38,121 bases of DNA from an uncultured Nitrospiraceae bacterium (GCA_964639385.1 CAZXCW010000005.1:1-38121); one strand, 5' to 3'; positions 23,440 through 37,945 are shown, counted from the stretch's first letter. The notes: generated by a model not told the origin, from the letters alone. Translations and numbers: made by a program.

Positions 23440-24975
23440 CTAAAATACCCCCCTATCCAGTGTCCTATATTGAATGGCTTCTGAGACATGGTGGGGATGA
23501 ATCTCCTCAGATGCCTCAAGGTCAGCAATGGTGCGGGATAACTTCAATATCCTCGTATATGCCCTCGCTGAAAGACCGAGTTTCTGCATTGCCGTGTCAA
23601 GCAGTATTTGGGCATCTGAATGCAGTTTGCAATATTTCTTCATATGCCTTGTCTTCATCTGGCCATTTGAATAAATCTTCTTATCATCTTTAAATCGTTC
23701 AAGCTGAACAGCCCTTGCAGCAATCATCCTTTTTCGTATTTCTTCAGATTTCTCACCCGAGTATTCGGTTGAAAGCTCCTTGTAAGGTACTGCTGGTACC
23801 TCAATATGTATATCAATTCGATCGAGAAGAGGACCTGAAACTCTGTGTCTATATCGATGTATCTGTGAAGGAGTGCATGTACATTGATGCCGGTTATCTC
23901 CCAGATATCCGCAGGGACAGGGATTCATGGCAGCAACAAGCATAAATGATGCTGGATAAGTTATTGATGCTACTGCCCTTGATACGGTCACCTCCCCATT
24001 TTCAAGAGGTTGTCTGAGTACCTCAAGCACGTTCCTTTTGAACTCTGGTAGCTCATCCAAGAATAGAATCCCATTGTGCGCGAGGCTAACCTCACCTGGT
24101 TTTGGGATCTGCCCCCCTCCTACTAATGCAACATCCGATATCGTGTGATGGGGAGAGCGGAAAGGCCTTGTTGCAAGAAGGGACTGCCCATCTCTGAGAA
24201 GGCCTATAACACTATGTATCCTCGTTGTTTCCAATGCCTCATCAAAGGTCATACCAGGAAGTATTGTCGGAAGTCTCTTTGAAAGCATCGTTTTACCCGA
24301 ACCAGGAGGCCCAATCATCAGCACATTGTGTCCACCAGAGGCAGCAACCTCGAGTGCCCTTTTTGCGTGCTCCTGGCCTTTAACCTCAAAAAAGTCATCC
24401 TCGTAGATTGAGTTTTCTTCAATAGCCTTTTCGACATCCACAACATAAGGTCTCTTAGGGTCATTATTGCTCAGAAAATCAACTACTTCAGGAAGACTCT
24501 TTATTCCAAATACGGGAACACCTTTGACAACAGCTGCCTCTGGAGCATTCTCCTCAGGAAGAATCACTCCTCTTAACCCTATTTCTCTTGCCCTCAGGGC
24601 CATTGATAAAGCGCCCTTTACAGGTTTGATCCTTCCATCGAGGGAAAGTTCACCTGTTAGGAGATAACCATCAATCGGGTCCGGTCCGATTATACCCTCT
24701 GCAGCAATAATTCCTATCGCAATTGGAAGGTCAAAAGATGAGCCTTCTTTTTTTAAATCGGCAGGTGCAAGATTGACTGTTATCTGCTTGAGGGGAAAAT
24801 TAAACCCTATATTTTTGAGTGCTGCCCTTACCCTGTCCTTTGATTCCTTTACAGCAGCATCTGGCAACCCAACCATTGAGAAATGAGGAAGACCCTTAGA
24901 TGTGATGTCTACCTCAACTTCAACAGTATGGGCATCGATCCCAATGATACTTGCACTCAGGACTCTAGAGAGCAT
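23440..24975 (-). CDS. comM: ComM/YifB Mg-chelatase-like AAA+ ATPase
   Basis: [57 protein letters not shown]. Confidence 0.95.
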
Positions 24976-25058
24976 TGGATAGATTATATTTTCTGAGGTG
25001 TCAGAAATTCAATACGTATGTTAAAATAACCAAATTATTTCATTTCTGGGGTTATCAA

Positions 25059-27467
25059 ATGGCACAAGTACAGGTAAGCATAGAAGAGGAGATGAAGGTT
25101 TCCTATCTTGATTATGCCATGAGCGTAATCATAGGCAGGGCACTTCCTGAAGTTAGAGATGGGTTGAAACCCGTACAGAGAAGAATACTCTATGCGATGT
25201 TCAGAGAGGGTCTCCTCCCCGGAAAGAAATACTCAAAATCTGCAGGCGTAGTAGGCGAGGTCTTAAAGAAATACCATCCACATGGAGACACAGCTGTTTA
25301 CGATGCCCTCGTTAGACTTGCACAAGACTTTAACATGCGATATCCTCTCATCGATGGACAAGGAAACTTTGGCTCTGTTGATGGAGACCCACCAGCTGCC
25401 TACAGGTACACAGAGGCAAGGCTTGCTGCCCTTGCAGAAGAACTCCTTACAGACATAGATAAAGAGACGGTTGACTTTATTCCAAATTTTGATGAGACAA
25501 CGGTAGAGCCTGTCGTATTGCCATCAAGGATTCCGAATTTAATCATAAACGGCTCCTCAGGCATTGCCGTTGGCATGGCTACAAACGTCCCCCCCCACAA
25601 CGACGGAGAGGGAATAGATGGCGTTGTTATGGCGCTCGAAGATCCAGAGACGAATATAAAAGACCTGATGGGTATCATAAAGGGCCCTGATTTTCCAACG
25701 GGCGGAATAATTCACGGAACCGAAGGGATCCTTCAGGCTTACAATGATGGAAAAGGGCTTATAAAAATAAGAGCAAGAGCGAGAATTGAGCGGGAGTACA
25801 GGGGCGGAGAGAACATCATCATTACAGAAATACCTTATCAAGTCAATAAAGCAAGGTTAATCGAGAAAATTGCTGAACTTGTTAGAGAAAAAAAGATTAC
25901 CGGAATATCCGAAATAAGAGACGAGTCCGATAGGGATGGTATTAGGGTTGTACTCGAACTGAAAAGAGGAGAGGTGGCAGAGGTTATCCTGAATAATCTT
26001 TATAAGCATACACAGATGGAGACCACCTTCGGTATCATTATGCTTACCCTTGTTAATGGCCAGCCCCGAATATTAGGCCTACAGAAACTACTCAATCATT
26101 TCTTGCAACACAGAAGGGATGTGGTTCTCAGGAGAACCCGTTTTGAATTAAGGAAGGCTGAAGAGAGGGCACATATTTTAGAGGGTTTAAAGATAGCTCT
26201 CGACCACCTCGATGAGATAATAGCCCTCATAAGGAGATCAAAGACACCAGAAGAAGCAAAGACTGCTTTAACTAAAAATTATCCACTCTCTGAGATACAG
26301 GCTCAAGCCATCCTTGATATGAGACTCGTGAGACTTACTGGCCTTGAGAGGGAAAAGATAATAAAAGAATTTGTAGATACATTGAAAGATATAGAAAGAT
26401 TGAAAGCGATACTTGGAAGCAATGCCCTTGTTTCAAATATCATTAAGGAGGAACTCCTTGAGATCAAGAATAAATACGCTGATGAAAGAAGGACTGAGAT
26501 CACTTCAGAGACAAAGGAGATCACCATAGAGGACCTCATAACTGATGAGGAGACGGTCATTACCCTTTCTCATCAAGGTTACATAAAAAGAAACCCTTTA
26601 AGTGCATACAGAAGTCAGCGGCGTGGAGGAAAGGGCCTTATCGGCATGGAGACGAAGGAAGAGGACTTTGTTGAAGAGCTTTTCATAGGAGCAACACATG
26701 ACTATATGCTTTTCTTTTCCAATCTTGGTCGCCTTTATTGGCTAAAGGCCTTCCAGATACCAGAGGCAGGCAGGGCTACAAGAGGTAAGGCTCTTGTGAA
26801 TCTGCTTACCCTCTCAGAGGGAGAGCGAATTACGACAGCCCTTCCTGTCCGTGACTTCAAAGAAGGTTTTCTTGTGATGTTCACAAAGAATGGGATAGTA
26901 AAAAAGACGGCCCTCGAGAAATACAGTAATCCCCGTGGAAAAGGGATTATCGCTATAGCCCTTGATGAAGGGGACGAGCTCATTGCCGTCAGAAAGACGG
27001 ATGGCAAAAGCGATCTCATTATAGGAACGAGAAACGGCCTTTCAATAAGATTCAATGAGGAAGATGTGCGTGACATGGGACGAACTGCTAAGGGGGTAAA
27101 AGGCATTAGACTCATGAAGGGAGATGAGGTTGTCTCAGCAGAAGTGGCAGAGGAAAAGACAGCCATCCTTACGGTGACAGAGAAGGGACAGGGGAAACGC
27201 TCTGCCATAGAAGATTATCCTGTTCAAGGACGTGGCGGTAAGGGCGTAATCTCAATCAAAACCACAGAAAAAGGTGGTAAAGCAGTTGGCCTGATGCAGG
27301 TGAGAGATGAAGATGAGCTCGTGATGATAACCAGTTCAGGGAAACTCATAAGAACCCTCGCGAGAGACATATCTCTCCATGGAAGGAACACACAGGGCGT
27401 AAGGTTGATGGATGTTGAAGGAGAAGACAAGATTGTTAGTATTGCAAAAGTTGTTGAAAGGGATTAA
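25059..27467 (+). CDS. gyrA: DNA gyrase subunit A
   Basis: [21 protein letters not shown], catalytic RYTEARL, GyrA box QRRGGKG, C-terminal pinwheel repeats; likely start ATG 25059. Confidence 0.97.
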
Positions 27468-27542
27468 GTTCTATAAATAGGCGCTGACTGCCATGCTTTG
27501 GCTCTTGTTTGGAGGCGGGAGGCTGTGGCAAATTTAGAGCAC

Positions 27543-27996
27543 TTATAAATAATTTGCCAGAACCAAAACCTTCATTTCTTCAATCTGCTTTAGTTTCTTG
27601 TCGTTAGTAAGGAAAGCATCTGTTCCAACATCAAGCGCAGCAGAAATTTGTATAGCATCAGTAGTTCTCAAAAACGGATATTTTCCCCTCAATCTGCCTG
27701 CTGCCTCAGCTATGCCTACTGAAATCTCGATCATATCAAGGTTTTTTCCATGCTTAAGAAATTCAGCAAATTTCCTGGCGAGTTTTTCATCTCCTTGTTC
27801 AACTGGTTTTGATAGAACTTCAGTAATGGTTATAACAGAAGAAAAGGCATTTAACGTTCCTGACTGAAAGGCTGTTACCGCTTTCTGTTACCGCTTTCTT
27901 GACAAGAGGTCCGAACTGTGGGTGAGCTTCTATGTAGTAGATAATCGGTGCTGTATCTATGAAAAGAGAATTTATTTGGGCGAGCTTATAGCTCAT
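27543..27996 (-). pseudogene. PIN-domain (VapC) toxin, frameshifted
   Basis: MSYKLAQINSLFIDTAPIIYYIE...; the 13-bp tandem duplication CTGTTACCGCTTT (27872-27897) shifts the frame. Removing it gives a 146-aa ORF with TITEVL, DAIQISAA and FLTNDKKL. Confidence 0.85.
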
Positions 27997-28217
27997 GCCC
28001 TGTCCTCCCTCAAGCGGTTGACGTATTCCTGTGCATCTTCACCTTTCCATAGCCCTTTTCCGAGACCGTAAAGTCCTTTCCAGTCAAGCTCTTTTTTCAT
28101 GGCAAGACGAGTTTTTCTTAACTGGTGGGCAAGACATTCCAATAATTTCAGTTGGTCTTTAGGTGTAAGTTTCTCAACTTCTTTTTCGATTTTTCCTAAT
28201 GTTGTTTCCTTTGGCAT
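27993..28217 (-). CDS. Putative antitoxin of the PIN toxin
   Basis: 74 aa, GGAGG RBS, LYGLGKGLWKGEDAQEYVNRLR tail; ATGA overlap with the PIN gene. Confidence 0.75.
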   Translation of the reverse strand: MPKETTLGKIEKEVEKLTPKDQLKLLECLAHQLRKTRLAMKKELDWKGLYGLGKGLWKGEDAQEYVNRLREDRA

Positions 28218-28644
28218 TTTAAGCCTCCTGGGCTTTTTATATCATTAGCATAACACATATGAATTTATCAATTAATATACGTTTGTCTTTTCCATCTCTG
28301 AAACTGGAAGGTAGGGAACTCCTTTAGTTTAGGAGTGCAGAAGTGCAAAAGCCAGACGTCAGAAGAAAGAAGTTTCCCTTTTGCATTTTTGCTCTTATTA
28401 AGAGGCGAGTGAGGGCGGGGGAAAATATAGATAATGTGTTAACAAAGTAGAATAAAAAACTGATATTGCAAGACTCGACCCTTAGGGGTGTTCAATCAAC
28501 GGAGGACATCTTTATTCTTTTCGCTATTTCCCCAGGGTTTTTATAAACCTCTTTTATGAGGGAATCAGGTATCCGTCCTGCAAGAAGAAACGATTCATCT
28601 CTATCATAATCCAGGACATCCACTAAATTACTCGCAAAATTTAC

Positions 28645-28682
28645 TTGACTTTTTTAATACACTATTATACACTTTGTATTAA
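28645..28682 (+). promoter_or_regulatory. Sigma-70 promoter of the lexA-like gene overlapped by a palindromic operator
   Basis: TTGACT (28645-28650)-17 bp-TACACT (28668-28673); IR TTAATACA (28654-28661)-N13-TGTATTAA (28675-28682); ATG at 28685 has no SD. Confidence 0.65.
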
Positions 28683-28684
28683 TT

Positions 28685-29311
28685 ATGAAGATACAGCTCA
28701 GTCAAAAACAAGCAGATGCACTTCGTTATGTACGAAACTGGCTTATGCATAAGGGCAAAACCCCATCTGTGCGTGAGCTGATGACAGCACTTGGATACAA
28801 ATCCCCTAGATCGGCTGCTTTAATTATTGAGGAATTAATCCAGAAAGGTATTTTGAGAAAGCGTTCAAATGGAGAGTTGCAGTTAATTAAAGATATTGAC
28901 GCAGATTCAGTTCATGCCCGCACAGTCGATATTCCTTTAGTTGGCATGGTAACCTGTGGAGTACCTATTTTAGCTCAGGAAAATATTGAGGGATATATTC
29001 CTGTATCTGTTTCCCTTGCAAAGCCCGGGTTTAAATACTTCTTGCTTAGGGCTAAAGGCGATTCCATGAACAAAGCCGGCATCAATGATGGAGATTTAAT
29101 ACTTGTTCGCCAGCAGTCAACCGCGCAAAATGGCGATATAGTTGTAGCACTGATTGACGATGAGGCGACTATAAAAGAGTTTCAACGTAGTAAAAATTGT
29201 GTTGTACTAATGCCAAGATCAAGTAATAAAAAATATAAGCCGATTATCCTGACTGAAAATTTTCAGGTTCAAGGAGTGGCTGTAACTACAATTCCAAAGT
29301 TGGAGGTTTGA
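28685..29311 (+). CDS. lexA: LexA-family repressor (winged HTH + S24 autopeptidase)
   Basis: TPSVRELMTALGYKSP HTH, IPLVGMVTCGVP cleavage region (Cys-Gly), catalytic GDSM and ATIK. Confidence 0.9.
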   Translation: MKIQLSQKQADALRYVRNWLMHKGKTPSVRELMTALGYKSPRSAALIIEELIQKGILRKRSNGELQLIKDIDADSVHARTVDIPLVGMVTCGVPILAQENIEGYIPVSVSLAKPGFKYFLLRAKGDSMNKAGINDGDLILVRQQSTAQNGDIVVALIDDEATIKEFQRSKNCVVLMPRSSNKKYKPIILTENFQVQGVAVTTIPKLEV

Positions 29312-29313
29312 AC

Positions 29314-29598
29314 ATGGCTAAAAAGACAGTGGATTTTAACAAGAAAGGAATAGGGAAGCTGCCAAACAACAAACCGGTCGTTTATAAGATACTTACAGAA
29401 GGCGGACAAAATAATTATACAGGTATAGCTCAAAAAGGTCGAGTTAAAGAAAGAATATCAGAACATTTATCAGGTGGCAAAGATTATGTTCCAGGCTCGA
29501 AAGTTCAAATTGAGCAAATAAAAAGCATCGAAGAGGCAAGGAAAAAAGAAACAGGTATTATTTCAAGAAGTGACCCAAAGTATAATAAACAGGAGTAA
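29314..29598 (+). CDS. Small GIY-YIG-like nuclease-domain protein
   Basis: PVVYKIL...NNYTGIAQKGRVKERISEH...EARKKE...PKYN; GGAGG RBS in the lexA 3' end. Confidence 0.7.
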   Translation: MAKKTVDFNKKGIGKLPNNKPVVYKILTEGGQNNYTGIAQKGRVKERISEHLSGGKDYVPGSKVQIEQIKSIEEARKKETGIISRSDPKYNKQE

Positions 29599-29772
29599 TA
29601 GTCTTGACCGCAAAGCAGACAAGGAGCCGTTTAAAAGGGGTAAGGAAGGAGAAGTAAAAGAGCCAATAATGTTTGAATTTGGTGGGGATAGAAGAAGGAA
29701 TTAAGAGAGCAAGATGAATAAGGTATGTGTTTCTAAATATCTAAGTCTAAATACCAAACTACTTTAAATATA

Positions 29773-31155
29773 ATGAGAAAAACACTTTTCATAAGCCACG
29801 CCACACCAGAAGATAATGATTTAGTGATTTGGTTGACCGCACGTTTGCAACTCTTAGGCTATGATGTTTGGATCGATAAAAATGCCTTACTTGGTGGTGA
29901 AAAATTCTGGGAGGAAATAGATCAAGTAATAAGAAATAAGGCTATTAAGTTTCTACTGGTTTATTCCAGAAACATTTGTATTAACAAAACCCCTGGCCGG
30001 TTAAAGGATGGCATTTATAAAGAATTTAGTCTGGCCGAAAGTGTGAGTAAGCAGGAGTCGTTAAAAGACTTCATTACAGAGTTGAATATAGATAATGCGC
30101 CACATAATCTCTTCATCGGCGCCGATAGACTTACGCAGATTCCTTTTTATGAAAACTGGGCAGAAGGGCTGAAAGCATTACTCAAAAAGTTAGAAAAGGA
30201 TGAAGTTTTTAAATCGGGAGAGAGAACTGTTGCAGGATTTTCTCAGTGGTATGAAAATGAGTACACAACCAAAAAGGGAATCATTCCAAAAAGAGAACTT
30301 TATTACTCAAATTGGTGGCCTATTCCAAAATTGCCGAATCATTTTTATCTATACCGCTTTGAAACAGAAAAGCAAGCTCAGGATGTTTATGAACGCAATC
30401 AAGAATTTCCTATTATCAAGTCAGGCAATATTCTAACCACATTTGATCCTGATCTATCATTGATTCTAAATTATGACGGACAAGAATTTACGATTAAGCC
30501 CAAAGATGTTCATAAAATCAAAATAAGAGATGTTCCTTTGGGTTATGAAAGCTCTGACTTCCCCTCGCATAAGGAGGCTGAAAACTATCTGAAAAGAATT
30601 TTGCATCGAGTCTTCCATCTAATAATGAAAAACAGCGGACTTTTCTGGTATGAGTTAGCGAACAAGAGACAGGCATATTTTTATCCACAAAAGAAGAAAA
30701 TATCTTTCGAATATCCTTTAAGAGAGGAAAGACGAAGGAAGAAACTAAAAGATTTAGTAGGTAGGTATTTGACTCTTGGTAAGTGGCATTTTGCTATATC
30801 ATCTAGGGCGATTACAACACATATTCTTGGATACAGTCTCAAATCACATATTATATTTACTTCCGATGGTTTTAGAGTTTGGGAAGACAAAGATCATCTC
30901 CATACTCACAGGAGAAAAAAAGGCAAGCGTCTTTATAACGATGAGTGGCGTGATATGCTTTTTGCCTTTCTGCATGGATTAAAGAAAAATGGAAAAATTC
31001 AAATACCTTTAAATAAAGAGTTTGTCTTAGAAATGCCCTTGCAAACCGAATTGCTCTGGTCAGATTTTGGATATTTTGATCCAAATGATAAATCTCGCCA
31101 AGAGGTTCTTAATCCATATGAAGAACTGTATGAAGAAGGCTATGAACAAGAATGA
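29773..31155 (+). CDS. TIR-APAZ effector of a SPARTA system
   Basis: TIR LFISHATPEDND...GYDVWID...FWEEI...GIYKEF (candidate catalytic Glu); APAZ YYSNWWPI, WHFAIS, SHIIFTSDG, HRRKKGKRLYNDEWRD; ATGA overlap with the pAgo gene. Confidence 0.92.
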   Translation: MRKTLFISHATPEDNDLVIWLTARLQLLGYDVWIDKNALLGGEKFWEEIDQVIRNKAIKFLLVYSRNICINKTPGRLKDGIYKEFSLAESVSKQESLKDFITELNIDNAPHNLFIGADRLTQIPFYENWAEGLKALLKKLEKDEVFKSGERTVAGFSQWYENEYTTKKGIIPKRELYYSNWWPIPKLPNHFYLYRFETEKQAQDVYERNQEFPIIKSGNILTTFDPDLSLILNYDGQEFTIKPKDVHKIKIRDVPLGYESSDFPSHKEAENYLKRILHRVFHLIMKNSGLFWYELANKRQAYFYPQKKKISFEYPLREERRRKKLKDLVGRYLTLGKWHFAISSRAITTHILGYSLKSHIIFTSDGFRVWEDKDHLHTHRRKKGKRLYNDEWRDMLFAFLHGLKKNGKIQIPLNKEFVLEMPLQTELLWSDFGYFDPNDKSRQEVLNPYEELYEEGYEQE

Positions 31156-32666
31156 GCATCGGTAAGTTGATTCATATCAATGAACCTATTCTTACCTTCG
31201 GGTTTAATCAGAAAGCGATTGACCCAAGAGATGGCATTACATTATTTGGCCCATTTACGAGGGAGAAACAGATAGGACAAGTAAATATTGGGATTATAGG
31301 TTCTCAAAAATTAAGACAACGATTAATAGAATACTTTGGCGAAATACAGAAACCAGTGTTCGGGCCAGAGTCTGAGCTTGCCCGCCCCTATTTCCCAGGT
31401 CTTGAGGCATCATTTAATATCTTTATCAACTTTAATAACATTGTAGAAATTGAAGTCCCACAAAATGAAATTGACCAGTTCTTGCACTATACTGATAGCT
31501 ACCAGAGGGTGCATAATTTAGTAAACTTATACTCTGACAGGTTAATAAAATATGTCCGTGAGGAAGAAGTTCCGATACTTGTGTGGTTTGTCATTATACC
31601 TGATACAATCTATCTTTACGGACGTCCTAAATCAAGAATTCCAAAGTCAAATGAAAACATAAAAGTCGGGTTGAAAAAGAAAGAACAAAGATCAAAGCAG
31701 GACTTCTTATTCTATGAGCTTAATCAACTGCGAGAGGCTTATCAATATGAAGTGAACTTTCACAATCAGCTTAAGGCAAAGCTTCTTAAATACAAAATTG
31801 TTACTCAAATTATTCGTGAAAGTACTATTGCATACAAAGATATTTGGAAAAATAAAAGGTTTGCGCAGGAAGAAGAAAAATTCGACACTGCTAAAGCATG
31901 GAATATCACAACAACATTGTATTACAAAACTGGGGGATTGCCATGGATATTAGGGGATGCGAGGGAAAAAGTATGTTATTTAGGGCTCGTTTTTAAGAAG
32001 CTTGAATCGAGTGAAATAAGTAGAAATACCTGTTGCGCCGCACAAATGTTTCTGAACTCTGGAGATGGAATGGTTTTTCGGGGGAACGTTGGGAAATATT
32101 ACAACCCTAAAACCAAAGAATTCCATTTGTCTGCTGAAGATGCATTCAAGCTCTTATCTAAGTTATTAGAAACTTTTAAAGAAAAAAGTGAAGATAACGA
32201 TTATCCTGACGAGGTATTTATACATGCTAAAACATATTTTGACGGTAAAGAATGGTCAGGCTTTACCAAGGCAGCGGAAGGGAAATCAAATATTTTTGGA
32301 GTGAGAATTAGAGACGATCAAACATTTAAATTATACAGAGACTTTACATTTCCAATTCCACGAGGCTCAACTTTAATTTTGAATGCCAAAAAAGCCTTCC
32401 TCTGGACAAAAGGCTTTATTCCGAGAATTCAGACTGTTATGGGATTAGAAACTCCGAACCCGTTGAGCATAGAAATCAATCGAGGAGAAGCAAGCATAGA
32501 AACAATATGCAAGGATATTTTGGCACTAACAAAATTGAATTATAATGCATGTAACTATGGCGATGGGCTGCCAGTGACATTAAGATTTGCAGATTCTATC
32601 GGAGAAGTTTTGACAGCAGGCCCTGAACCAGAAACAGAAGTTTTACCTTTTAAGCATTATGTTTAG
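31152..32666 (+). CDS. Short prokaryotic Argonaute (MID-PIWI, catalytically inactive), SPARTA
   Basis: 504 aa; DPRDGITLFGP, FHNQLKAKLL..TQIIREST, YYKTGGLPW, CYLGLVFKK, FIHAK (no DEDX tetrad), LALTKLNYN, PVTLRFAD. Confidence 0.93.
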   Translation: MSIGKLIHINEPILTFGFNQKAIDPRDGITLFGPFTREKQIGQVNIGIIGSQKLRQRLIEYFGEIQKPVFGPESELARPYFPGLEASFNIFINFNNIVEIEVPQNEIDQFLHYTDSYQRVHNLVNLYSDRLIKYVREEEVPILVWFVIIPDTIYLYGRPKSRIPKSNENIKVGLKKKEQRSKQDFLFYELNQLREAYQYEVNFHNQLKAKLLKYKIVTQIIRESTIAYKDIWKNKRFAQEEEKFDTAKAWNITTTLYYKTGGLPWILGDAREKVCYLGLVFKKLESSEISRNTCCAAQMFLNSGDGMVFRGNVGKYYNPKTKEFHLSAEDAFKLLSKLLETFKEKSEDNDYPDEVFIHAKTYFDGKEWSGFTKAAEGKSNIFGVRIRDDQTFKLYRDFTFPIPRGSTLILNAKKAFLWTKGFIPRIQTVMGLETPNPLSIEINRGEASIETICKDILALTKLNYNACNYGDGLPVTLRFADSIGEVLTAGPEPETEVLPFKHYV

Positions 32667-32774
32667 GTGATGAGAGTTATTTTTAATTTTTATTTAATAT
32701 GATGGTTCTATTAAATGAGTATCGAAATATCTAATATCACCCTAATTATCGGCGATAGTCGAATGGAGGTCTAA

Positions 32775-34223
32775 ATGAGCAAGGAGGAATATGATATGCG
32801 TGCTACATCGACTGAATATTATCCTATATCAATTGATGAAATAAAACAAAAAATTTCCAAAAGAAATGGGAATGGGAAAAAAAATAATCAACAGAATCAG
32901 CCATTCTTATTTAATGGACATGAAGAATTAGAAAACGTTAAAGAGATAATCAATGACTTCAGAGAGAAAATAACTCGTGTTGATGGCGATATCCCCATAG
33001 AGTTGCCAATAGGAAATGGTGATAGATTTTTATTTATCAGTTACGATCAAAGTATTTATACACATGGCTTCCATAAATATCCTGCAAAATTTTTCCCTGA
33101 ACTTCCAAGATGGCTCATTAGGCGTTACTCAAATGAAGGCAACACAATACTTGACCCATTTTCTGGAAGTGGTACAACAAATGTTGAAGCATTACTGTTA
33201 AGAAGACATTCTGTCGGGATTGATGTTGACCCATTTTCCCGTTTTCTTTCCAAGGTGAAAACAACTCCGTTAGATGAAGATGAACTTAAATATTCACAGA
33301 AAACACTCCTGCGTTCAGTCATCAAATATCATCCAACTAAAATAAAAGAGGCTGATATTCCTGATTTTCCATATAGGGATAATTGGTTTAATAAGGAAAT
33401 TATTTTCGAGTTGGCATATCTTAAGAAAATAATTAATTTTTTAGATGTAAATGACGATGTTAAAGATTTTTTGAAAATTTGTTTTTCGTCAATTATCAGG
33501 TCAGTTTCTAATGCTGATGACAATTGCACAAGGACTGTGATAAGAAAAAAATTAAATAAAAAAGTCTACCCTGCTGATGCACTTAAGAAATTTGTCGAGC
33601 GTTTATTGATTAATGTACCCAAAATGAGTGACTTTTCATCCGTTTGTCCTAATAATGACATAGAAATAGCTTTTCCAACAGATAACGATGCAAGACATAT
33701 TAAATATCCTGATCGGTTTTTTGACTTATGTGTAACTTCTCCTCCCTATGCAAATGCAGTGGATTATCCCAGAACACACCAGCTTGAAGTATACTGGTTA
33801 GAACTTGCAAACGGCTCCCTAACTCCCTTAAAGAAGAAACATGTAGGGACAGAAAGTGTATCCTCTGTAGAATATAAAAATCTTTGTTTGACTGGTGTAA
33901 ACAGTGCAGATAGAATAATTACTAAAATTTTCAAAAAGGATCAAAGAAGAGCCTACATAGCATACAAATATTTAAAAGATATGGAATCTAATCTAAAAGA
34001 GGTCTATCGGGTGCTTAAAAAAGGTGGCCGATATATAGTAGTAGTTGGAAACAACAAAATTAGAAATGAATTATTTGAGACATGGAAATATCTGATGGAG
34101 ATGTCAGAAAATATCGGCTATCGCATAGAAAATTATTTTGGTTCAGAAATTATTAGGCATTTTATAAAAGTTCCTCGTGAAGAAAGAATAAATACTGACT
34201 GGATAATTATATTTAGAAAATGA
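32775..34223 (+). CDS. DNA amino-methyltransferase (SPPY type, probably m4C)
   Basis: THGFHKYPAKF, motif I DPFSGSGTT, motif IV VTSPPY, VYRVLKKGG. Confidence 0.9.
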   Translation: MSKEEYDMRATSTEYYPISIDEIKQKISKRNGNGKKNNQQNQPFLFNGHEELENVKEIINDFREKITRVDGDIPIELPIGNGDRFLFISYDQSIYTHGFHKYPAKFFPELPRWLIRRYSNEGNTILDPFSGSGTTNVEALLLRRHSVGIDVDPFSRFLSKVKTTPLDEDELKYSQKTLLRSVIKYHPTKIKEADIPDFPYRDNWFNKEIIFELAYLKKIINFLDVNDDVKDFLKICFSSIIRSVSNADDNCTRTVIRKKLNKKVYPADALKKFVERLLINVPKMSDFSSVCPNNDIEIAFPTDNDARHIKYPDRFFDLCVTSPPYANAVDYPRTHQLEVYWLELANGSLTPLKKKHVGTESVSSVEYKNLCLTGVNSADRIITKIFKKDQRRAYIAYKYLKDMESNLKEVYRVLKKGGRYIVVVGNNKIRNELFETWKYLMEMSENIGYRIENYFGSEIIRHFIKVPREERINTDWIIIFRK

Positions 34224-34241
34224 CAACAGGGGAATACAACA

Positions 34242-34736
34242 ATGGATAATCGTGAAGATTTAGGGAGGCAGGCATCTGTTGAAGGTTTTGCAAATGAACA
34301 TATAGTTGTTGGCATTTTAATGAAAAAATATCAAAATGTTTCTCTAGTTGATCTTCCGTTATCTCCTTACGACATTGTTATTGTTTTTAAAGAACGGAAC
34401 GGAACAGAAAATATTATTCGCGCCCAAGTTAAAACTGCTACTAAAAGTATTAAGTTTACGGGTGGAACGAGAGGCGGCGTAGATAGATACTATAAGTCTG
34501 GTGTTAAGGAATATACGCAATCACCAAAAACCTCAGATGTAATTATTGGTCTACATTCCATAGGCAAAGACTCTTTTGAACTGTTTTTTGTTCCCACAAT
34601 TGTAGTCGAGCGCTTATCACAGAAAAGTATTTCTCTAAACAGAATAAAAGCTTTAAAGAATAACTACGACATCTTAGAAAATTGTAAAAACGAGAATTAC
34701 GTAATTACTAAATGTAAAGAATATGGAATTATCTAA
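34242..34736 (+). CDS. PD-(D/E)XK nuclease, putative cognate restriction endonuclease
   Basis: GFANE...SPYDIVI...RAQVKTA; 18 bp downstream of the methyltransferase. Confidence 0.7.
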   Translation: MDNREDLGRQASVEGFANEHIVVGILMKKYQNVSLVDLPLSPYDIVIVFKERNGTENIIRAQVKTATKSIKFTGGTRGGVDRYYKSGVKEYTQSPKTSDVIIGLHSIGKDSFELFFVPTIVVERLSQKSISLNRIKALKNNYDILENCKNENYVITKCKEYGII

Positions 34737-34782
34737 TTTGAGGAACGGGAATAAGGGGACGTTCTTGATTAAATGAACTAAA

Positions 34783-34806
34783 AGGTTGCCAAAGAGGTTG
34801 CCAAAG
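34783..34806. repeat. 12-bp tandem duplication
   Basis: AGGTTGCCAAAG occurs twice at the right edge of the defence island. Confidence 0.8.
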
Positions 34807-34925
34807 GGACACTTCCCATATATTTACCACTTTCTTTTGTGAATAGAAACGTTGAAAATGCAGAGGCTTAAGCACAAAAATCCAAAAGCGAAGAAATCAG
34901 AAGACAAATAAAAAATAGTAGTATA

Positions 34926-36878
34926 TTAACGCTTGCCCCGGATAATCGGCTTTTGCGAGAGCGAATCCAGTATTTCGATAAGCCGCGGTCTTCTCCGGTT
35001 CCCTTCCTTCAGCCTTTGTAGATACGTGTCCCATTCGCTTGTTCTGCCATGTTCTGTAAGTGTCTTCTGAGCCTTCCGTAGATACTTAGCCCCTTCACTA
35101 TAAGCAGTCACATTGGCCACAGAAATACGGTTTTCGGATAATTCTTTCCAAATCATTACAGCCTTATCAGGATATTTGTGCGCAATCGCTGTAGCTATCC
35201 TGTCTTTCAGATTTTCTCCCATCCAGTTTTTTCCCTTTTGTTTATGAACATTGAACCAGTCCAGCACGTCATCAACTCTTTTTTCATGGATAGCAATATC
35301 TATCAAAACATCGGTAAGTGGTGGCTTCCTAAACCGAGTACTATCAGCCCTCTCAATTCCTGTATCAGGCAGAGGCCATTCATTGCTACCTTTCCTGGGA
35401 TGCTTCCCGGTCTTGAGAAAATGCAGAATCGCTTCTCTTACCTGAGGCCAGACCTTTGCCCTTTCAGAGGCTTTTTGGAGTTCCTCGAATGTTTTCAGAC
35501 AAGGGTTTTCGAAGAACCCATCTGCACAAAGCGCTGCAACAAACGGCAAATCCCTTTTGAGATTTCGGATAGTCAGCAACTCTTTCTTCAGAAAGCCGGC
35601 AATGCCGGGCCACTTATTATTCGTTGCCGATATTCCCCTGCGAATCCATTCCTCTGCCTCTGCAGTACGTCCGGCCATTCGAAGCCTTTTTACCAAACGC
35701 TCATAGCTGTAAGTCTTTTCTGCTTCCTTTAAACACAAAGGAATAACTTCTTCCTCCCGGCCCGCATTCTCCAAAGCCCAGATGATTTTGTCCGTTAATC
35801 GGTCACGCCGGTAATTGCGTGAAAAAGAATCCTCATGCTCTTCGCTCTTTATATCGTTCAACCTGCTTAGGAGACGATCTGCAAGAGAATCCCAGTCTTT
35901 TCTGCTGAACCTCCGTTTCCAAAACTCCTCCAGACCGTAACCGAGATCGTATTCATCACGCAGCTCTAAGTCCACAGCCCATTGCATCTTATCGACATCA
36001 GACAGTGAGCATACCCCCAAGGCTTTAAAGACGATCGTCATCGATTGAGCCACTTCATCGGCAGTTTCCCCTTCATCATGCGATTGCTCAACTTGTGTCA
36101 TCCCGGCGGAGAAGAGCTTCTCACCCACCTGGACTACCTCATCGGCATGCCCTTCATCAAACAGCTTTTGAAGACCGCTCCGTACGCGCGAATAGTCGGG
36201 GATATAGCCTCTGTAGTCCCAGTGATTTCGCCAGCCCGGCTCTCTGCTTACCCTTTCGATTTCCCTTTCGACTGTTTTTACTATGACTGATGGCTTGCAA
36301 CTCTTTATCCGTGCTTTGCAGTCCAATTCCCCGTTGATCTCAGGATGCCGCAAAAGAATAGCCGTAATCAAATCAATTAGTTCATTTTTGGTTTGGCGTT
36401 GAAGGTAGTTGCCAAGCTTGGTATCGGCTGATGCTCTTTCAGATTCCGCGAAGGATTCGTCATTACCTTCGGTTTCATCATCAAGCATATCATTATTATC
36501 TTCTTCATCAGGGTATGCGGTTCTTCCTTGTCTGATCAAAACCAGGCGATTATCGTTCTCGTCTATTATGGGCGCGTTCCTGCCGTTTTCAAGACAATCG
36601 AGATGTTCAAGAATAACTGCTACCGCATGCTTGCATGCTGAATGGTATGGACAAGTGCAGATTGAAGAAAGCACTCCTTCATCAAGTGAGACTTTGGTCG
36701 CATAGGTGGTCGATCCCTCGACCCATGCAACAAGCTCTCCCGACCTGGTAATCGCCAACTCTCTGACGGATTTGCTTCGTTGATACGACTTTCCTCTTGA
36801 CACGATTTTCAAACCTGCCCAAGACTCCAGGTCGAACCATGAAAGGTTCTCAAAATCCTTCTTTGCTTGTCTTCTCAT
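34926..36878 (-). CDS. SWIM zinc-finger domain protein
   Basis: RGKSYQR, VEGSTTY, CTCPYHSACKHAVAV, helical C-terminus ending RRRPRLIEIL. Confidence 0.85.
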   Translation of the reverse strand: MRRQAKKDFENLSWFDLESWAGLKIVSRGKSYQRSKSVRELAITRSGELVAWVEGSTTYATKVSLDEGVLSSICTCPYHSACKHAVAVILEHLDCLENGRNAPIIDENDNRLVLIRQGRTAYPDEEDNNDMLDDETEGNDESFAESERASADTKLGNYLQRQTKNELIDLITAILLRHPEINGELDCKARIKSCKPSVIVKTVEREIERVSREPGWRNHWDYRGYIPDYSRVRSGLQKLFDEGHADEVVQVGEKLFSAGMTQVEQSHDEGETADEVAQSMTIVFKALGVCSLSDVDKMQWAVDLELRDEYDLGYGLEEFWKRRFSRKDWDSLADRLLSRLNDIKSEEHEDSFSRNYRRDRLTDKIIWALENAGREEEVIPLCLKEAEKTYSYERLVKRLRMAGRTAEAEEWIRRGISATNNKWPGIAGFLKKELLTIRNLKRDLPFVAALCADGFFENPCLKTFEELQKASERAKVWPQVREAILHFLKTGKHPRKGSNEWPLPDTGIERADSTRFRKPPLTDVLIDIAIHEKRVDDVLDWFNVHKQKGKNWMGENLKDRIATAIAHKYPDKAVMIWKELSENRISVANVTAYSEGAKYLRKAQKTLTEHGRTSEWDTYLQRLKEGNRRRPRLIEILDSLSQKPIIRGKR

Positions 36879-36952
36879 TTCCTATGCAGCCTCTTATGAC
36901 ATGATATAATCCATCAGAACAGTTTTGTGCGTATATCAGTCTGTCCCTACTT

Positions 36953-37945
36953 TCAGATGTGGAACTCAACGATATCTCTATCTTTTAAAACATAGTTTTT
37001 TTCTACCCTTTGACCATCAAATTTAGCAGAACCCCATATCCTTGCATATTTCAGATTAGGTATGAAATCTTTGTGTATAGATTCCGCAAGATCCAGCACC
37101 GTAGAGCCTGATGGTATCGTAAACGGCGTCGAAAGATCTGGCTCTTTTCCAGGAGGCTTGGAGTAAACCCTTATGATGCCTGAAACATCAAATATCGCCC
37201 TTTTCAGTTCCTCAAGATTTTCTTTTTTGAGAGCAGATATGGAAATACAAGGGCAAAGATGCCCATACTGTTCCTTGAGTCTGAAAAAGTTATTTTCTGT
37301 TGCAGGACAATCATTTTTATTTGAAACAAGAAGGGCTTTTTTGAATACACCGATAGAAGACCCTGATTCCAAAAATTGAGACTTAACAATATATATCCTC
37401 CATCGTCCCAGTTGTTCAATAAAAAGCTCTGCCTGGGTCTCAAGGTCTTCGGTACTATCCAAGACAAGAAGAAGGGCATCAGCTATCCTGAGAATGCCTG
37501 ATACCCATCCATCTGTTGATTCGTTCCCAACAGGTGGTAGATCCACAAGCTGAATCTGAATATCCTCAAAAGGCATCATACCTGGCAGTGGCGTTACCGT
37601 GGATATAGGATATTCAGCCACGACAGGTATAGCATTTGTCAGACTTGCAAGCAGTGAAGACTTCCCTGAATTTGGAAATCCCACAAGCGCAATCTGGGCA
37701 GCCCCTTCTTTCTGAATTACATAAAGATCCCCTCTGCCACCCTTCTTTGACCTTCTAAATGCCTCTGCCTCTTTTTTTAGCTGAGAGAGCTTCCTCCTTA
37801 GATCACCTCTTAGCCTATCCGTCCCTTTGTGTTTGGGAACTGTGGCTATTAATTCTTCAAGGGCAAAAATTTTCTCTGCAGGGGTTGAAGCCTGTCTAAA
37901 TCTCCTATCAGCTTCAAAATACTCTGGTGGAAGATTGGCTGGCAT
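36953..37945 (-). CDS. DRG/Obg-like GTPase with TGS domain
   Basis: MPANLPPEY, PKHKGT, G1 GFPNSGKS, DLPP, NKND, TGS GSTVLDLAESIH...ARIWG...DIVEFH. Confidence 0.88.
   Translation of the reverse strand: MPANLPPEYFEADRRFRQASTPAEKIFALEELIATVPKHKGTDRLRGDLRRKLSQLKKEAEAFRRSKKGGRGDLYVIQKEGAAQIALVGFPNSGKSSLLASLTNAIPVVAEYPISTVTPLPGMMPFEDIQIQLVDLPPVGNESTDGWVSGILRIADALLLVLDSTEDLETQAELFIEQLGRWRIYIVKSQFLESGSSIGVFKKALLVSNKNDCPATENNFFRLKEQYGHLCPCISISALKKENLEELKRAIFDVSGIIRVYSKPPGKEPDLSTPFTIPSGSTVLDLAESIHKDFIPNLKYARIWGSAKFDGQRVEKNYVLKDRDIVEFHI

What the first reader, a model, noticed from the sequence alone, without database searches (positions are those of the whole stretch)
28645..34736. LexA-headed defence island: LexA, GIY-YIG, TIR-APAZ, short pAgo (SPARTA), methyltransferase and nuclease
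Seen: six co-oriented genes with short gaps or overlaps, no obvious intervening terminator, and a LexA-type repressor with intact Ser/Lys catalytic residues at the head. Established: SPARTA is an RNA-guided, ssDNA-activated NAD(P)+-depleting abortive system, and LexA is cleaved on RecA-ssDNA filaments. Inference: a dedicated repressor may make SPARTA and its partners inducible by DNA damage or ssDNA, so the same signal would control both expression and activation. This parallels CapH/CapP or BrxR/CapW control of other defence systems. I do not know of this arrangement being described for SPARTA.
Basis: partly seen in the sequence, partly recalled or inferred. Interest (0 to 1): 0.85.

Follow-up and report, generated by a model that had tools for sequence, protein, structure and literature searches.

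The report
Portable LexA switch heading swappable defence genes
A self-cleaving DNA-damage repressor gene (LexA type) with its own promoter travels as a small module between related groundwater bacteria and always sits in front of interchangeable anti-virus genes, here a SPARTA system plus a restriction system, which suggests but does not prove that DNA damage switches these defences on.

Summary
The six co-oriented genes are real. They are LexA, a probable small GIY-YIG protein, TIR-APAZ, short pAgo (a full SPARTA), a DNA methyltransferase and a probable PD-(D/E)xK nuclease.

This lexA is the only S24 gene in the assembly, but it is not the lineage's vertical lexA. It belongs to a tight clade nested among LexAs of other phyla, and two sister genomes carry it alongside their ordinary lexA.

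The promoter, operator and lexA form a roughly 0.7-1 kb head module.
- It is 87-93% identical in DNA, against 75-81% for gyrA.
- Its homology starts exactly at the -35 box.
- It lies at different chromosomal sites in each locus.
- In 14 of 14 loci with downstream sequence, it precedes co-oriented defence cargo: R-M in 13, CBASS in 1, and SPARTA only here.

The operator palindrome occurs once per island. It is absent upstream of recA and dinB. No promoter or terminator is predicted between lexA and SPARTA.

SPARTA itself is not normally LexA-linked: 0 of 35 other SPARTA loci have a LexA nearby.

The general idea of a dedicated damage-sensing repressor on defence cargo is therefore supported by comparison, but a specific LexA-SPARTA system is not. 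Expression is untested. This scan has noted similar LexA-headed cargo slots on other DNA. My literature searches found no description.

The parts
28645..28673 (+). Promoter of the head module: -35 TTGACT (28645-28650), 17-nt spacer, -10 TACACT (28668-28673). The ATG lies 11 nt after the -10 with no Shine-Dalgarno, so the lexA mRNA is probably leaderless or nearly so.
   Evidence: Promoter scan. DNA homology to 15 other heads begins exactly here, at 28640-28644. Contigs of run X4 diverge from the window before 28644.
28657..28679 (+). Candidate LexA operator: ATACAC-N4-ATACAC-TT-TGTAT. It is a direct repeat plus the palindrome ATACA-N3-TGTAT (28667-28679) and overlaps the -10.
   Evidence: The half-sites are kept while the spacer bases vary in 16 heads. 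The palindrome occurs once per head-bearing source in 15 of 16 (L045 has a variant), only at the lexA promoter, in 270,695 nt. The full architecture is unique in the 2.78-Mb genome. TGTAT/ATACA repeats sit upstream of 50-64% identical LexAs of other phyla.
28685..29311 (+). lexA (208 aa): winged-helix LexA DNA-binding domain plus S24 autopeptidase. Cleavage site Cys91-Gly92, Ser127, Lys164.
   Evidence: Xenologous clade.
29314..29598 (+). Small probable GIY-YIG protein (94 aa from the ATG; the ORF lister starts it at TTG 29308). GGAGG at 29301-29305 inside the lexA 3' end suggests translational coupling. It is an optional second gene of the head.
   Evidence: Pfam 22.2 bits, just under the cut-off. 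Fold hits to UvrC GIY-YIG domains at prob 0.72-0.75. 76-85% identical copies follow lexA in L034, L036 and L042. No match in the PDB by sequence or by profile.
29605..29656 (+). About 50-nt 'tail' element. It is the 3' end of the 57-aa ORF that follows lexA in heads lacking the GIY-YIG gene, kept here out of frame. It marks the end of head homology.
   Evidence: nhmmer finds 15 copies in 12 of 17 sources. It bounds cassettes in L041 (3 copies), L044 (2 copies) and L038.
29773..31155 (+). TIR-APAZ subunit of SPARTA (460 aa). Glu84 aligns with Glu77 of a solved TIR-APAZ chain.
31152..32666 (+). Short prokaryotic Argonaute (MID-PIWI, 504 aa), overlapping TIR-APAZ by 4 nt.
32775..34223 (+). Type II N6/N4 DNA methyltransferase (482 aa).
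34242..34736 (+). 164-aa candidate PD-(D/E)xK restriction endonuclease, partner of the methyltransferase (D44, Q62-V-K64).
   Evidence: No Pfam, NCBIfam, PADLOC or PDB sequence match. The single-sequence model was unusable, pLDDT 33.5.
27469..36951 (.). Variable interval between conserved gyrA (24975-27467) and a GTPase gene (36953-37945). It holds a decayed toxin-antitoxin pair, the LexA-headed island (about 28640-34736, 33-39% GC against 42-46% in the flanks) and a 650-aa SWIM-finger gene on the - strand.
   Evidence: Homology to sister genomes stops at the gyrA stop codon and resumes at the GTPase gene. The interval differs in G021 and G013. GC profile.

Best explanation
The locus is a horizontally mobile 'head' module followed by swappable defence cargo.

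The head consists of a sigma-70-type promoter, an overlapping operator, a near-leaderless lexA, and an optional small second gene (GIY-YIG here).

The cargo here is two independent known systems: SPARTA (TIR-APAZ + short pAgo) and a Type II restriction-modification pair.

Proposed mechanism:
1. LexA dimers bind the ATACA/TGTAT operator over the -10 and hold transcription from this single promoter at a low, self-limited level.
2. The cargo has no predicted promoter or terminator of its own, so it is read through from the same promoter.
3. RecA bound to single-stranded DNA arises from DNA damage, phage replication or processing of restricted DNA. It stimulates LexA self-cleavage at Cys91-Gly92 by the Ser127/Lys164 dyad, and the whole cassette is induced.

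Shown here:
- The gene identities.
- The xenologous origin of this lexA.
- The sharp module borders.
- Recurrence of the head before different defence cargo at different chromosomal sites.
- One operator per island.
- No such operator at recA or dinB.

Inferred: operator binding, co-transcription, RecA-dependent cleavage, and induction.
For: Recurrence of the head:
- The same LexA (88-95% aa) occurs in 5 sister genera, plus a 51-residue match cut off by a contig end in a sixth (G014), and in 9 further Nitrospirota records.
- DNA homology begins at the -35 box and ends at the lexA stop or after the second gene.
- Head DNA identity is 86.6-93.4%, against 75.3-80.8% for gyrA in the same genome pairs.
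- The upstream neighbours all differ: gyrA, inositol monophosphatase, glycogen phosphorylase, ThyX, PAP2, KsgA, a ThiI-like gene, a GH57 enzyme and a Mu-type transposase.

Phylogeny:
- The 15 island-type LexAs form one clade (SH-aLRT 100).
- That clade sits inside a 98-supported clade with LexAs of other phyla.
- The 24 ordinary LexAs of the order lie apart.
- G003 and G021 carry both types.

Cargo:
- It is co-oriented in 14 of 14 loci with downstream sequence.
- 13 of 14 include a DNA methyltransferase, with recognisable nuclease partners: MvaI/BcnI, TdeIII in two loci, GIY-YIG in two, HNH in three, and fused type IIG in two.
- One locus is a patatin + CD-NTase CBASS.

Operator:
- The palindrome occurs once per island and nowhere else in 270,695 nt.
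- The full architecture is unique in the genome.
- None lies upstream of recA or dinB.

Operon structure and LexA residues:
- No + strand promoter-like site in 29599-29772 and no terminator-like site in 28685-34736.
- The spacer RNA is unstructured, z = +0.55, and there is no Rfam hit.
- The catalytic Ser and Lys are intact.

Wider clade (LexAs at 50-64% identity): 47 of 62 loci have co-oriented ORFs within 300 nt. Of 124 such proteins, 10 match SMODS and up to 12 match PADLOC CBASS cyclases.

The assembly of the junction is confirmed.
Against: - There are no expression data of any kind.
- The promoter scan finds no more sites than chance in this AT-rich DNA (27 found, 24.5 expected), so its silence in the 174-nt and 108-nt gaps is weak evidence. 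R-M and SPARTA cassettes usually work from their own promoters.
- All 35 other SPARTA loci examined lack a LexA.
- This is the only LexA found in the assembly (95% complete, 287 contigs), so it could also serve the cell. My operator search used strict patterns and would miss degenerate sites. One lone palindrome lies upstream of a GGDEF gene on contig C165.
- GyrA is 86-88% identical among the sister genera, so LexA protein identity alone does not prove transfer.
- Relatives of this LexA clade in other phyla head recA (5 loci) or Y-family polymerase genes (6 loci). The family therefore includes ordinary SOS regulators.
- Cys-Gly is the UmuD-type cleavage site (recalled), not the usual LexA Ala-Gly.
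- A preprint reports that defence-gene expression in E. coli correlates negatively with recA transcription (10.64898/2025.12.14.694197, passages seen).
Confidence: 0.55

Rival explanations
1. Immunity repressor of a decayed mobile element, with 'moron'-like cargo. The LexA-type protein is what is left of the maintenance switch of a phage- or island-like element. The defence genes are passengers co-transcribed with the repressor, as rexAB are with lambda cI. Their expression serves the element, and damage induction of defence is a by-product, not the selected function.
For: - The head is mobile, AT-rich and near-leaderless, as the lambda cI transcript from PRM is (recalled).
- Cargo is swappable.
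- Toxin-antitoxin cassettes accompany heads.
- Earlier notes of this scan describe LexA-type repressors of small phage-derived elements in CPR bacteria with cargo slots (unchecked here).
Against: - No integrase, excisionase, replication or structural genes were found next to 13 of the 14 Nitrospirota heads annotated. One has a Mu-type transposase upstream.
- No relative above 60% identity (best listed 42%) exists in 50,697 phage or 72,556 plasmid records.
- Nothing other than the defence cargo is present for the repressor to control.
Confidence: 0.2
2. Ordinary cellular SOS LexA sitting next to an integration hot spot. The cargo genes are independent insertions with their own promoters, and LexA regulates only itself and unknown chromosomal genes.
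For: - It is the only S24 gene in the assembly, and also the only match in the 100%-complete G022.
- The gyrA-GTPase interval is a variable region in sister genomes.
- Relatives of the clade head recA or translesion polymerase genes.
Against: - The tree places it away from the order's own LexAs, and two genomes hold both types.
- The gene sits at a different chromosomal site in each genome, with homology starting at its -35 box.
- Head DNA is about 10 points more similar than gyrA DNA.
- One MAG carries two heads (L042 and L106), and G017 carries a head plus a fragment.
- There is no operator at recA or dinB.
- Cargo is co-oriented in 14 of 14 loci.
Confidence: 0.12
3. Establishment and homeostasis controller, analogous to a C-protein. 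Negative autoregulation gives a burst of methylase and nuclease on entry into a naive cell, then clamps toxic cargo at a low level. The protease domain plays little part.
For: - R-M is the cargo in 13 of 14 loci.
- The repressor is the first gene of the unit, behind a strong -35 box.
Against: - The S24 domain, the Ser/Lys dyad and a Cys-Gly site are kept, and the heads are 88-95% identical in protein. This argues that self-cleavage matters.
- C-proteins time the nuclease relative to the methylase (recalled). A single upstream repressor does not do that.
- CBASS and SPARTA cargo need no establishment delay.
Confidence: 0.08

Closest known systems
Canonical LexA/SOS autoregulation (E. coli LexA; lexA-headed operons with translesion polymerase genes)
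   Same: Same protein family and domain order, with the Ser-Lys dyad. The operator overlaps the gene's own promoter. lexA is the first gene of an operon. Direct-repeat LexA motifs are known: the Balneolaeota motif TTACACATATTTTWTACATA is given in PMC7739468 (passages read).
   Different: No operator at recA or dinB in this genome. The gene is xenologous and mobile. The cargo is immune genes, not repair genes. The cleavage site is Cys-Gly.
CapW/BrxR (WYL), CapH+CapP and CapK+CapS regulator modules of immune operons (PMC9122588, PMC9122589, PMC9122601, PMC11662680, 10.1101/2022.04.27.489752, PMC13373217; abstracts in search listings, term look-ups)
   Same: A repressor gene at the head of varied defence operons. 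The proposed trigger is DNA damage or single-stranded DNA. The same regulator type is found with different systems.
   Different: Unrelated proteins: there is no WYL domain, no metallopeptidase and no kinase (Pfam). Sensing here would go through host RecA and self-cleavage. Neither the CapH/CapP preprint nor the CapK/CapS paper contains the words LexA, S24 or Argonaute.
Phage lambda immunity operon cI-rexA-rexB
   Same: An S24 self-cleaving repressor on a leaderless transcript, co-transcribed with abortive-infection genes.
   Different: There is no prophage here. The DNA-binding domain is LexA-type, not cI-type. The promoter is presumably only repressed, not activated, by its product.
SPARTA (short pAgo + TIR-APAZ; PMC9097488, abstract seen)
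   Same: Both subunits are full-length, overlap by 4 nt, and match solved SPARTA complexes at 1e-49 and 4e-144. The TIR Glu is conserved.
   Different: It sits behind a LexA head. None of the 35 other SPARTA loci examined do. The closest TIR-APAZ relatives found are 51-64% identical.
Integron platform (Pc promoter, LexA-controlled integrase, attC-bounded cassettes; the SOS link is named in the abstract of PMC3323433)
   Same: One conserved promoter-bearing platform, co-oriented promoterless-looking cassettes, a short repeat at cassette ends, and toxin-antitoxin cassettes in the arrays.
   Different: No integrase was found among the genes annotated in 14 islands. The 50-nt repeat is not an attC-like imperfect palindrome. 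Arrays hold one to three cassettes.

Membership tests
LexA repressor (TIGR00498 / Peptidase S24) | N-terminal LexA winged-helix DNA-binding domain plus C-terminal S24 domain | tested here: met
   TIGR00498 168 bits (cut-off 111); PF01726 2e-10; PF00717 3e-33. Full-length alignment to E. coli LexA structures, 4.5e-31.
LexA repressor (TIGR00498 / Peptidase S24) | Ser-Lys catalytic dyad and a scissile Ala-Gly (or Cys-Gly) bond | tested here: met
   Ser127 and Lys164 align with the E. coli GMSM and TVK positions. The scissile pair is Cys91-Gly92 where E. coli has Ala-Gly. That Cys-Gly is the UmuD site is recalled.
LexA repressor (TIGR00498 / Peptidase S24) | Control of an SOS regulon (recA, translesion polymerases) through a shared operator | tested here: not met
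   The full operator is unique to its own promoter in 2.78 Mb. None lies upstream of recA (C23) or dinB (C247). Strict patterns only.
LexA repressor (TIGR00498 / Peptidase S24) | RecA-ssDNA-stimulated self-cleavage | not testable with these tools
   Needs biochemistry. recA is present in the genome.
SPARTA | Adjacent TIR-APAZ and short (MID-PIWI) pAgo genes | tested here: met
   PADLOC Aga_TIR-PNTD 4.8e-134 and pAgo_I 3.7e-196. Solved SPARTA chains match at 1e-49 and 4e-144. 4-nt overlap.
SPARTA | Catalytic glutamate of the TIR NADase | tested here: met
   Glu84 aligns with Glu77 of chain 8u7b_B. That this is the catalytic residue is recalled.
SPARTA | Guide-RNA/target-ssDNA-triggered NAD(P)+ hydrolysis | not testable with these tools
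   Needs an assay.
Type II restriction-modification | Methyltransferase with a cognate endonuclease next to it | tested here: inconclusive
   The methyltransferase is clear. The endonuclease candidate rests on a sequence motif and an Atlas feature score of 0.98. There are no profile or PDB matches, and the model was unusable.
GIY-YIG nuclease superfamily | GIY-YIG domain with its conserved Tyr, Arg and Glu positions | tested here: inconclusive
   Pfam 22.2 bits against a cut-off of 22.6. VVYKI and YTGIA motifs are invariant in 4 copies. Foldseek: UvrC GIY-YIG domains at prob 0.72-0.75, TM 0.49-0.53, E 0.4. No PDB sequence or profile match.
CapW/BrxR or CapH/CapP regulators | WYL domain, or an HTH repressor plus a metallopeptidase partner | tested here: not met
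   No such domains in any of the six genes.
Integron | IntI tyrosine recombinase and attC sites | tested here: not met
   No recombinase among the genes scanned in 14 islands and their upstream neighbours, except one Mu-type transposase. The junction repeat is not attC-like.

The most novel reading that the evidence does not exclude
The LexA-controlled promoter and the ~50-nt junction repeat together form an integrase-less, integron-like platform. The platform captures promoterless defence and toxin-antitoxin cassettes and spreads among Nitrospirota. One RecA-sensed signal, acting on one repressor pool, would then switch on a whole swappable immune repertoire, including several islands in one genome.
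Probability: 0.15. Interest if true: 0.85.

Novelty: new variant of a known kind. Interest (0 to 1): 0.6.

Why it matters
Abortive systems such as SPARTA and CBASS kill their host, so how they are kept quiet is an open question. The known answers are the CapW/BrxR, CapH/CapP and CapK/CapS regulators.

A portable LexA head would add the oldest bacterial damage sensor, RecA/LexA, to that list. It would link restriction, which makes DNA ends and single strands, to induction of second-line suicide systems within one transcription unit.

It would also give a simple rule for finding new defence genes: look behind such heads. The module is small, with a defined promoter, operator and cleavage site. 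The idea can therefore be tested directly in E. coli, including with the SPARTA cargo.

Tried and rejected
- RNA evidence: no RNA holder was listed for 28600-32700. Only DNA contigs could be laid.
- Rfam: no match in 27000-36000.
- Spacer structure: none beyond chance.
- Repeats of the intergenic spacers elsewhere in the genome: none.
- orf164: no Pfam, NCBIfam, PADLOC or PDB sequence hit. The single-sequence AlphaFold model had pLDDT 33.5, so no fold search was run on it.
- GIY-YIG protein: no PDB match by sequence or by 4-sequence profile, only chance-level cytochrome c hits.
- Phage and plasmid collections: no LexA relative above 60% identity, best listed 42%.
- Iterative phmmer from one CD-NTase found only 2 of the cyclases that Pfam and PADLOC count, so I rely on the family tallies and on clustering.
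- The idea that lexA + GIY-YIG is the conserved pair was rejected. The GIY-YIG gene replaces the middle of a 57-aa ORF in 4 of 14 heads.
- The idea that the junction repeat is confined to LexA islands was rejected. Two of the five strict-pattern copies found in 41 genomes lie elsewhere, next to small toxin-antitoxin-like gene pairs.
- Candidate extra operators at C183, C15, C25, C40, C45 and C141 lie inside ORFs or at a contig end and were set aside as chance.
- One call failed on wrong coordinates and was repeated correctly.
- Literature: no paper describing island-borne LexA heads of defence operons was found in searches.


Full report
**The genes are as described.**
The + strand between 28685 and 34736 carries six ORFs.
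- LexA is unambiguous. It scores 168 bits on TIGR00498 against a cut-off of 111, has both the LexA DNA-binding and S24 domains, and aligns over its full length to E. coli LexA structures.
- In that alignment Ser127 and Lys164 are in place. The scissile pair is Cys91-Gly92 where E. coli has Ala-Gly.
- TIR-APAZ and short pAgo overlap by 4 nt and match PADLOC models at 4.8e-134 and 3.7e-196. They match solved SPARTA chains at 1e-49 and 4e-144, and the TIR glutamate is conserved.
- The 482-aa protein is an N6/N4 DNA methyltransferase.
- The two small proteins are less certain.
  - The 94-96 aa protein falls 0.4 bits short of the Pfam GIY-YIG cut-off. A mid-confidence model (pLDDT 63.6) gives UvrC GIY-YIG domains as its most probable fold matches, though none reaches E<=0.001.
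  - The 164-aa protein has a D...QxK motif and an Atlas score of 0.98 to a cluster auto-named PD(D/E)XK endonuclease, but no profile match.
- A contig of run X1 spans 27387-31558 without a difference, so the lexA-SPARTA join is not an assembly artefact.

**This lexA is the only one found, but it is not the lineage's own.**
- A Pfam S24 search of the 2.78-Mb assembly (95% complete, 287 contigs) finds this gene alone. Ordinary LexAs of relatives used as queries also hit only it.
- Among 40 relatives, most have a LexA that is 27-36% identical to this one. Five sister genera have one that is 88-95% identical, and a sixth (G014) has a 51-residue match cut off by a contig end.
- Of the five, G003, G013 and G021 also have a second match of the 32-33% kind. 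G017's second match is a fragment of the island type, and G022 has no second match.
- A tree of 101 LexAs puts the 15 island-type proteins in one clade (support 100). That clade sits inside a clade (support 98) with LexAs of Patescibacteria, Omnitrophota, Planctomycetota, Bacteroidota and Proteobacteria. The 24 ordinary LexAs of the order lie elsewhere. G003 and G021 have one of each.
- The other-phyla rows were chosen by similarity to the query, so their clustering with it is expected. The informative points are the separation from the order's own LexAs and the co-occurrence of both types in one genome.
- GyrA is 86-88% identical among these genera, so protein identity alone would not prove transfer.
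- At the DNA level the head is 86.6-93.4% identical, against 75.3-80.8% for gyrA in the same pairs.

**The conserved unit is a head module with sharp borders.**
- DNA homology to all other copies starts at 28640-28644, at the -35 hexamer TTGACT. It ends at the lexA stop or just after the second gene. Contigs from a different study (X4) also diverge from the window before 28644.
- The upstream neighbours differ in every locus and are mostly housekeeping genes.
- In the window the island lies in a gyrA-GTPase interval whose content differs in sister genomes. It is 33-39% GC against 42-46% in the flanks.
- The promoter is TTGACT, 17 nt, TACACT, with the ATG 11 nt further on and no Shine-Dalgarno. 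The lexA message is therefore probably leaderless.
- Over the -10 lies ATACAC-N4-ATACAC-TT-TGTAT. The half-sites are kept while the spacers vary in 16 copies. Similar TGTAT/ATACA repeats precede the 50-64% identical LexAs of other phyla.
- Direct-repeat LexA motifs are known, for example in the Balneolaeota (PMC7739468, passages read).
- The palindrome occurs once per island and nowhere else in 270,695 nt of related loci. The full architecture is unique in the genome. There is none upstream of recA or dinB.

**The genes behind the head vary, and in this clade they are always defence genes.**
I had 14 distinct loci with downstream sequence: the window, five from sister genomes, and eight from named records. 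L039 duplicates L034. L037 and L106 end inside lexA. L038 is a lexA fragment. All 14 have co-oriented cargo.
- 13 of 14 include a DNA methyltransferase. The recognisable nuclease partners are MvaI/BcnI, TdeIII (two loci), GIY-YIG (two), HNH (three) and fused type IIG enzymes (two).
- Extras include a Schlafen/AlbA_2 protein, an AAA_15-DUF4435 ATPase and a DUF5677 protein.
- The 14th locus is a patatin + CD-NTase CBASS.
- SPARTA appears only in the window.
- Conversely, none of 7 other SPARTA loci found in 401 genomes of the phylum has a LexA match nearby (within 1.5 kb upstream). None of 28 metagenome loci with TIR-APAZ at 51-64% identity has one within the DNA held (up to 5 kb on each side); 20 of these have at least 1 kb upstream.
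- SPARTA is therefore one captured cassette, not a partner of LexA.
- In the wider clade, 47 of 62 loci have co-oriented ORFs within 300 nt. Among 124 such proteins Pfam finds SMODS in 10, Y-family polymerase in 6, RecA in 5 and DUF2188 in 6. PADLOC finds CBASS cyclase models in up to 12.
- Nine of the SMODS proteins cluster into 6 loci. The family thus includes both ordinary SOS regulators and heads of immune operons.

**The second gene and the junction repeat.**
- In heads without the GIY-YIG gene, lexA is followed by a 57-aa ORF (for example L046:10630-10803) with no family match. It is intact in 6 loci and frameshifted in one.
- The GIY-YIG gene, present in 4 of 14 heads, replaces the middle of that ORF. 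Its 3' 50 nt persist out of frame at 29605-29656.
- The same 50 nt recur in the same orientation behind cassettes:
  - three copies in L041 (after the small ORF, after an R-M pair, after a toxin-antitoxin pair);
  - two copies in L044;
  - one copy after MazE-PIN in L038.
- Two of the five strict-pattern copies found in 41 genomes lie away from any head, beside small toxin-antitoxin-like gene pairs.
- I cannot say whether it is a recombination site, a scar or a portable ribosome-binding site. It ends in a strong Shine-Dalgarno-like run, and in L032 and L044 the next ORF starts 1-3 nt after it.

**How it most likely works.**
- There is one operator per island, placed over the only recognisable promoter.
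- Cargo is co-oriented in every case, and the second gene is translationally coupled.
- No promoter-like or terminator-like site is predicted between lexA and the end of the cargo. The 174-nt spacer is unstructured.
- The simplest reading is therefore a single autoregulated transcription unit that LexA self-cleavage would induce.
- This is inference. The promoter scan performs at chance level in this AT-rich DNA, the gaps are long enough for unseen promoters, and no RNA data exist.
- I put 0.55 on the regulatory reading. I put about 0.9 on the structural statement that this is a mobile LexA head with swappable defence cargo.

**Comparison and novelty.**
- Functionally it resembles the CapW/BrxR, CapH/CapP and CapK/CapS modules, with recalled parallels in lambda cI-rexAB and C-protein-controlled R-M. 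It shares no protein family with the Cap regulators.
- My searches found no paper describing island-borne LexA heads of defence operons.
  - The 15 SPARTA papers listed first contain no mention of LexA.
  - The CapH/CapP preprint and the CapK/CapS paper contain neither LexA nor S24.
- This scan has noted the same pattern before on other DNA. One note is on a close Nitrospirota relative whose cargo matches what I found in L040 (Schlafen, HNH, two methyltransferases). Several others concern Patescibacteria. These are unchecked AI notes and not independent evidence.
- This window adds four things:
  1. SPARTA as cargo.
  2. A set of near-identical heads with exact borders.
  3. The xenology test.
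  4. The genome-wide operator test.
- I rate it a new variant of a known kind. The LexA-SPARTA pairing itself is incidental.

Noticed in passing
window 27543-28217 (- strand): A decayed VapBC-like toxin-antitoxin pair. A 74-aa antitoxin-like ORF (27993-28217) is intact. The PIN-like toxin downstream of it is split between two frames by a 13-nt tandem duplication at about 27871-27896.
   Followed up: partly
window 29605-29656; L041 10752, 13814, 14603; L044 4659, 7329; L038 6076; L169; L170: About 50-nt repeat found in one orientation at the ends of defence and toxin-antitoxin cassettes. It also occurs in a genome (G009) with no LexA match. Its function is unknown.
   Followed up: partly
L046:10630-10803 and equivalents in L032, L035, L041, L043, L044: A conserved, lysine- and arginine-rich 57-aa ORF translationally coupled to lexA, with no family match. 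It could be a small partner or modulator of the repressor.
   Followed up: partly
window 29681 (run X2): One low-depth contig joins the SPARTA side to a different upstream sequence. This may be a strain in which the cassette sits behind another head variant.
   Followed up: no
window 34926-36878 (- strand): A 650-aa protein whose only match is a SWIM zinc finger. It lies in the variable gyrA-GTPase interval, at higher GC than the island, and is absent from that interval in the four sister genomes checked.
   Followed up: no
L042 and L106 (one MAG); L035 and L038 (G017): Two heads, or a head plus a lexA fragment, occur in one genome. A single repressor pool could then govern several islands.
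   Followed up: no
G000 contig C165, about 2285: A lone ATACA-N3-TGTAT palindrome between a tRNA gene and a PAS-GGDEF gene. It is the only intergenic extra match to the operator core in the genome.
   Followed up: partly
L064, L068, L072, L074, L075 (Bacteroidota records): Canonical-type LexA homologues (56-60% identical) head Y-family polymerase genes, with DnaE2-like genes following in L064 and L068. Bacteroidota are a phylum reported to lack canonical LexA (PMC8565304, abstract).
   Followed up: no
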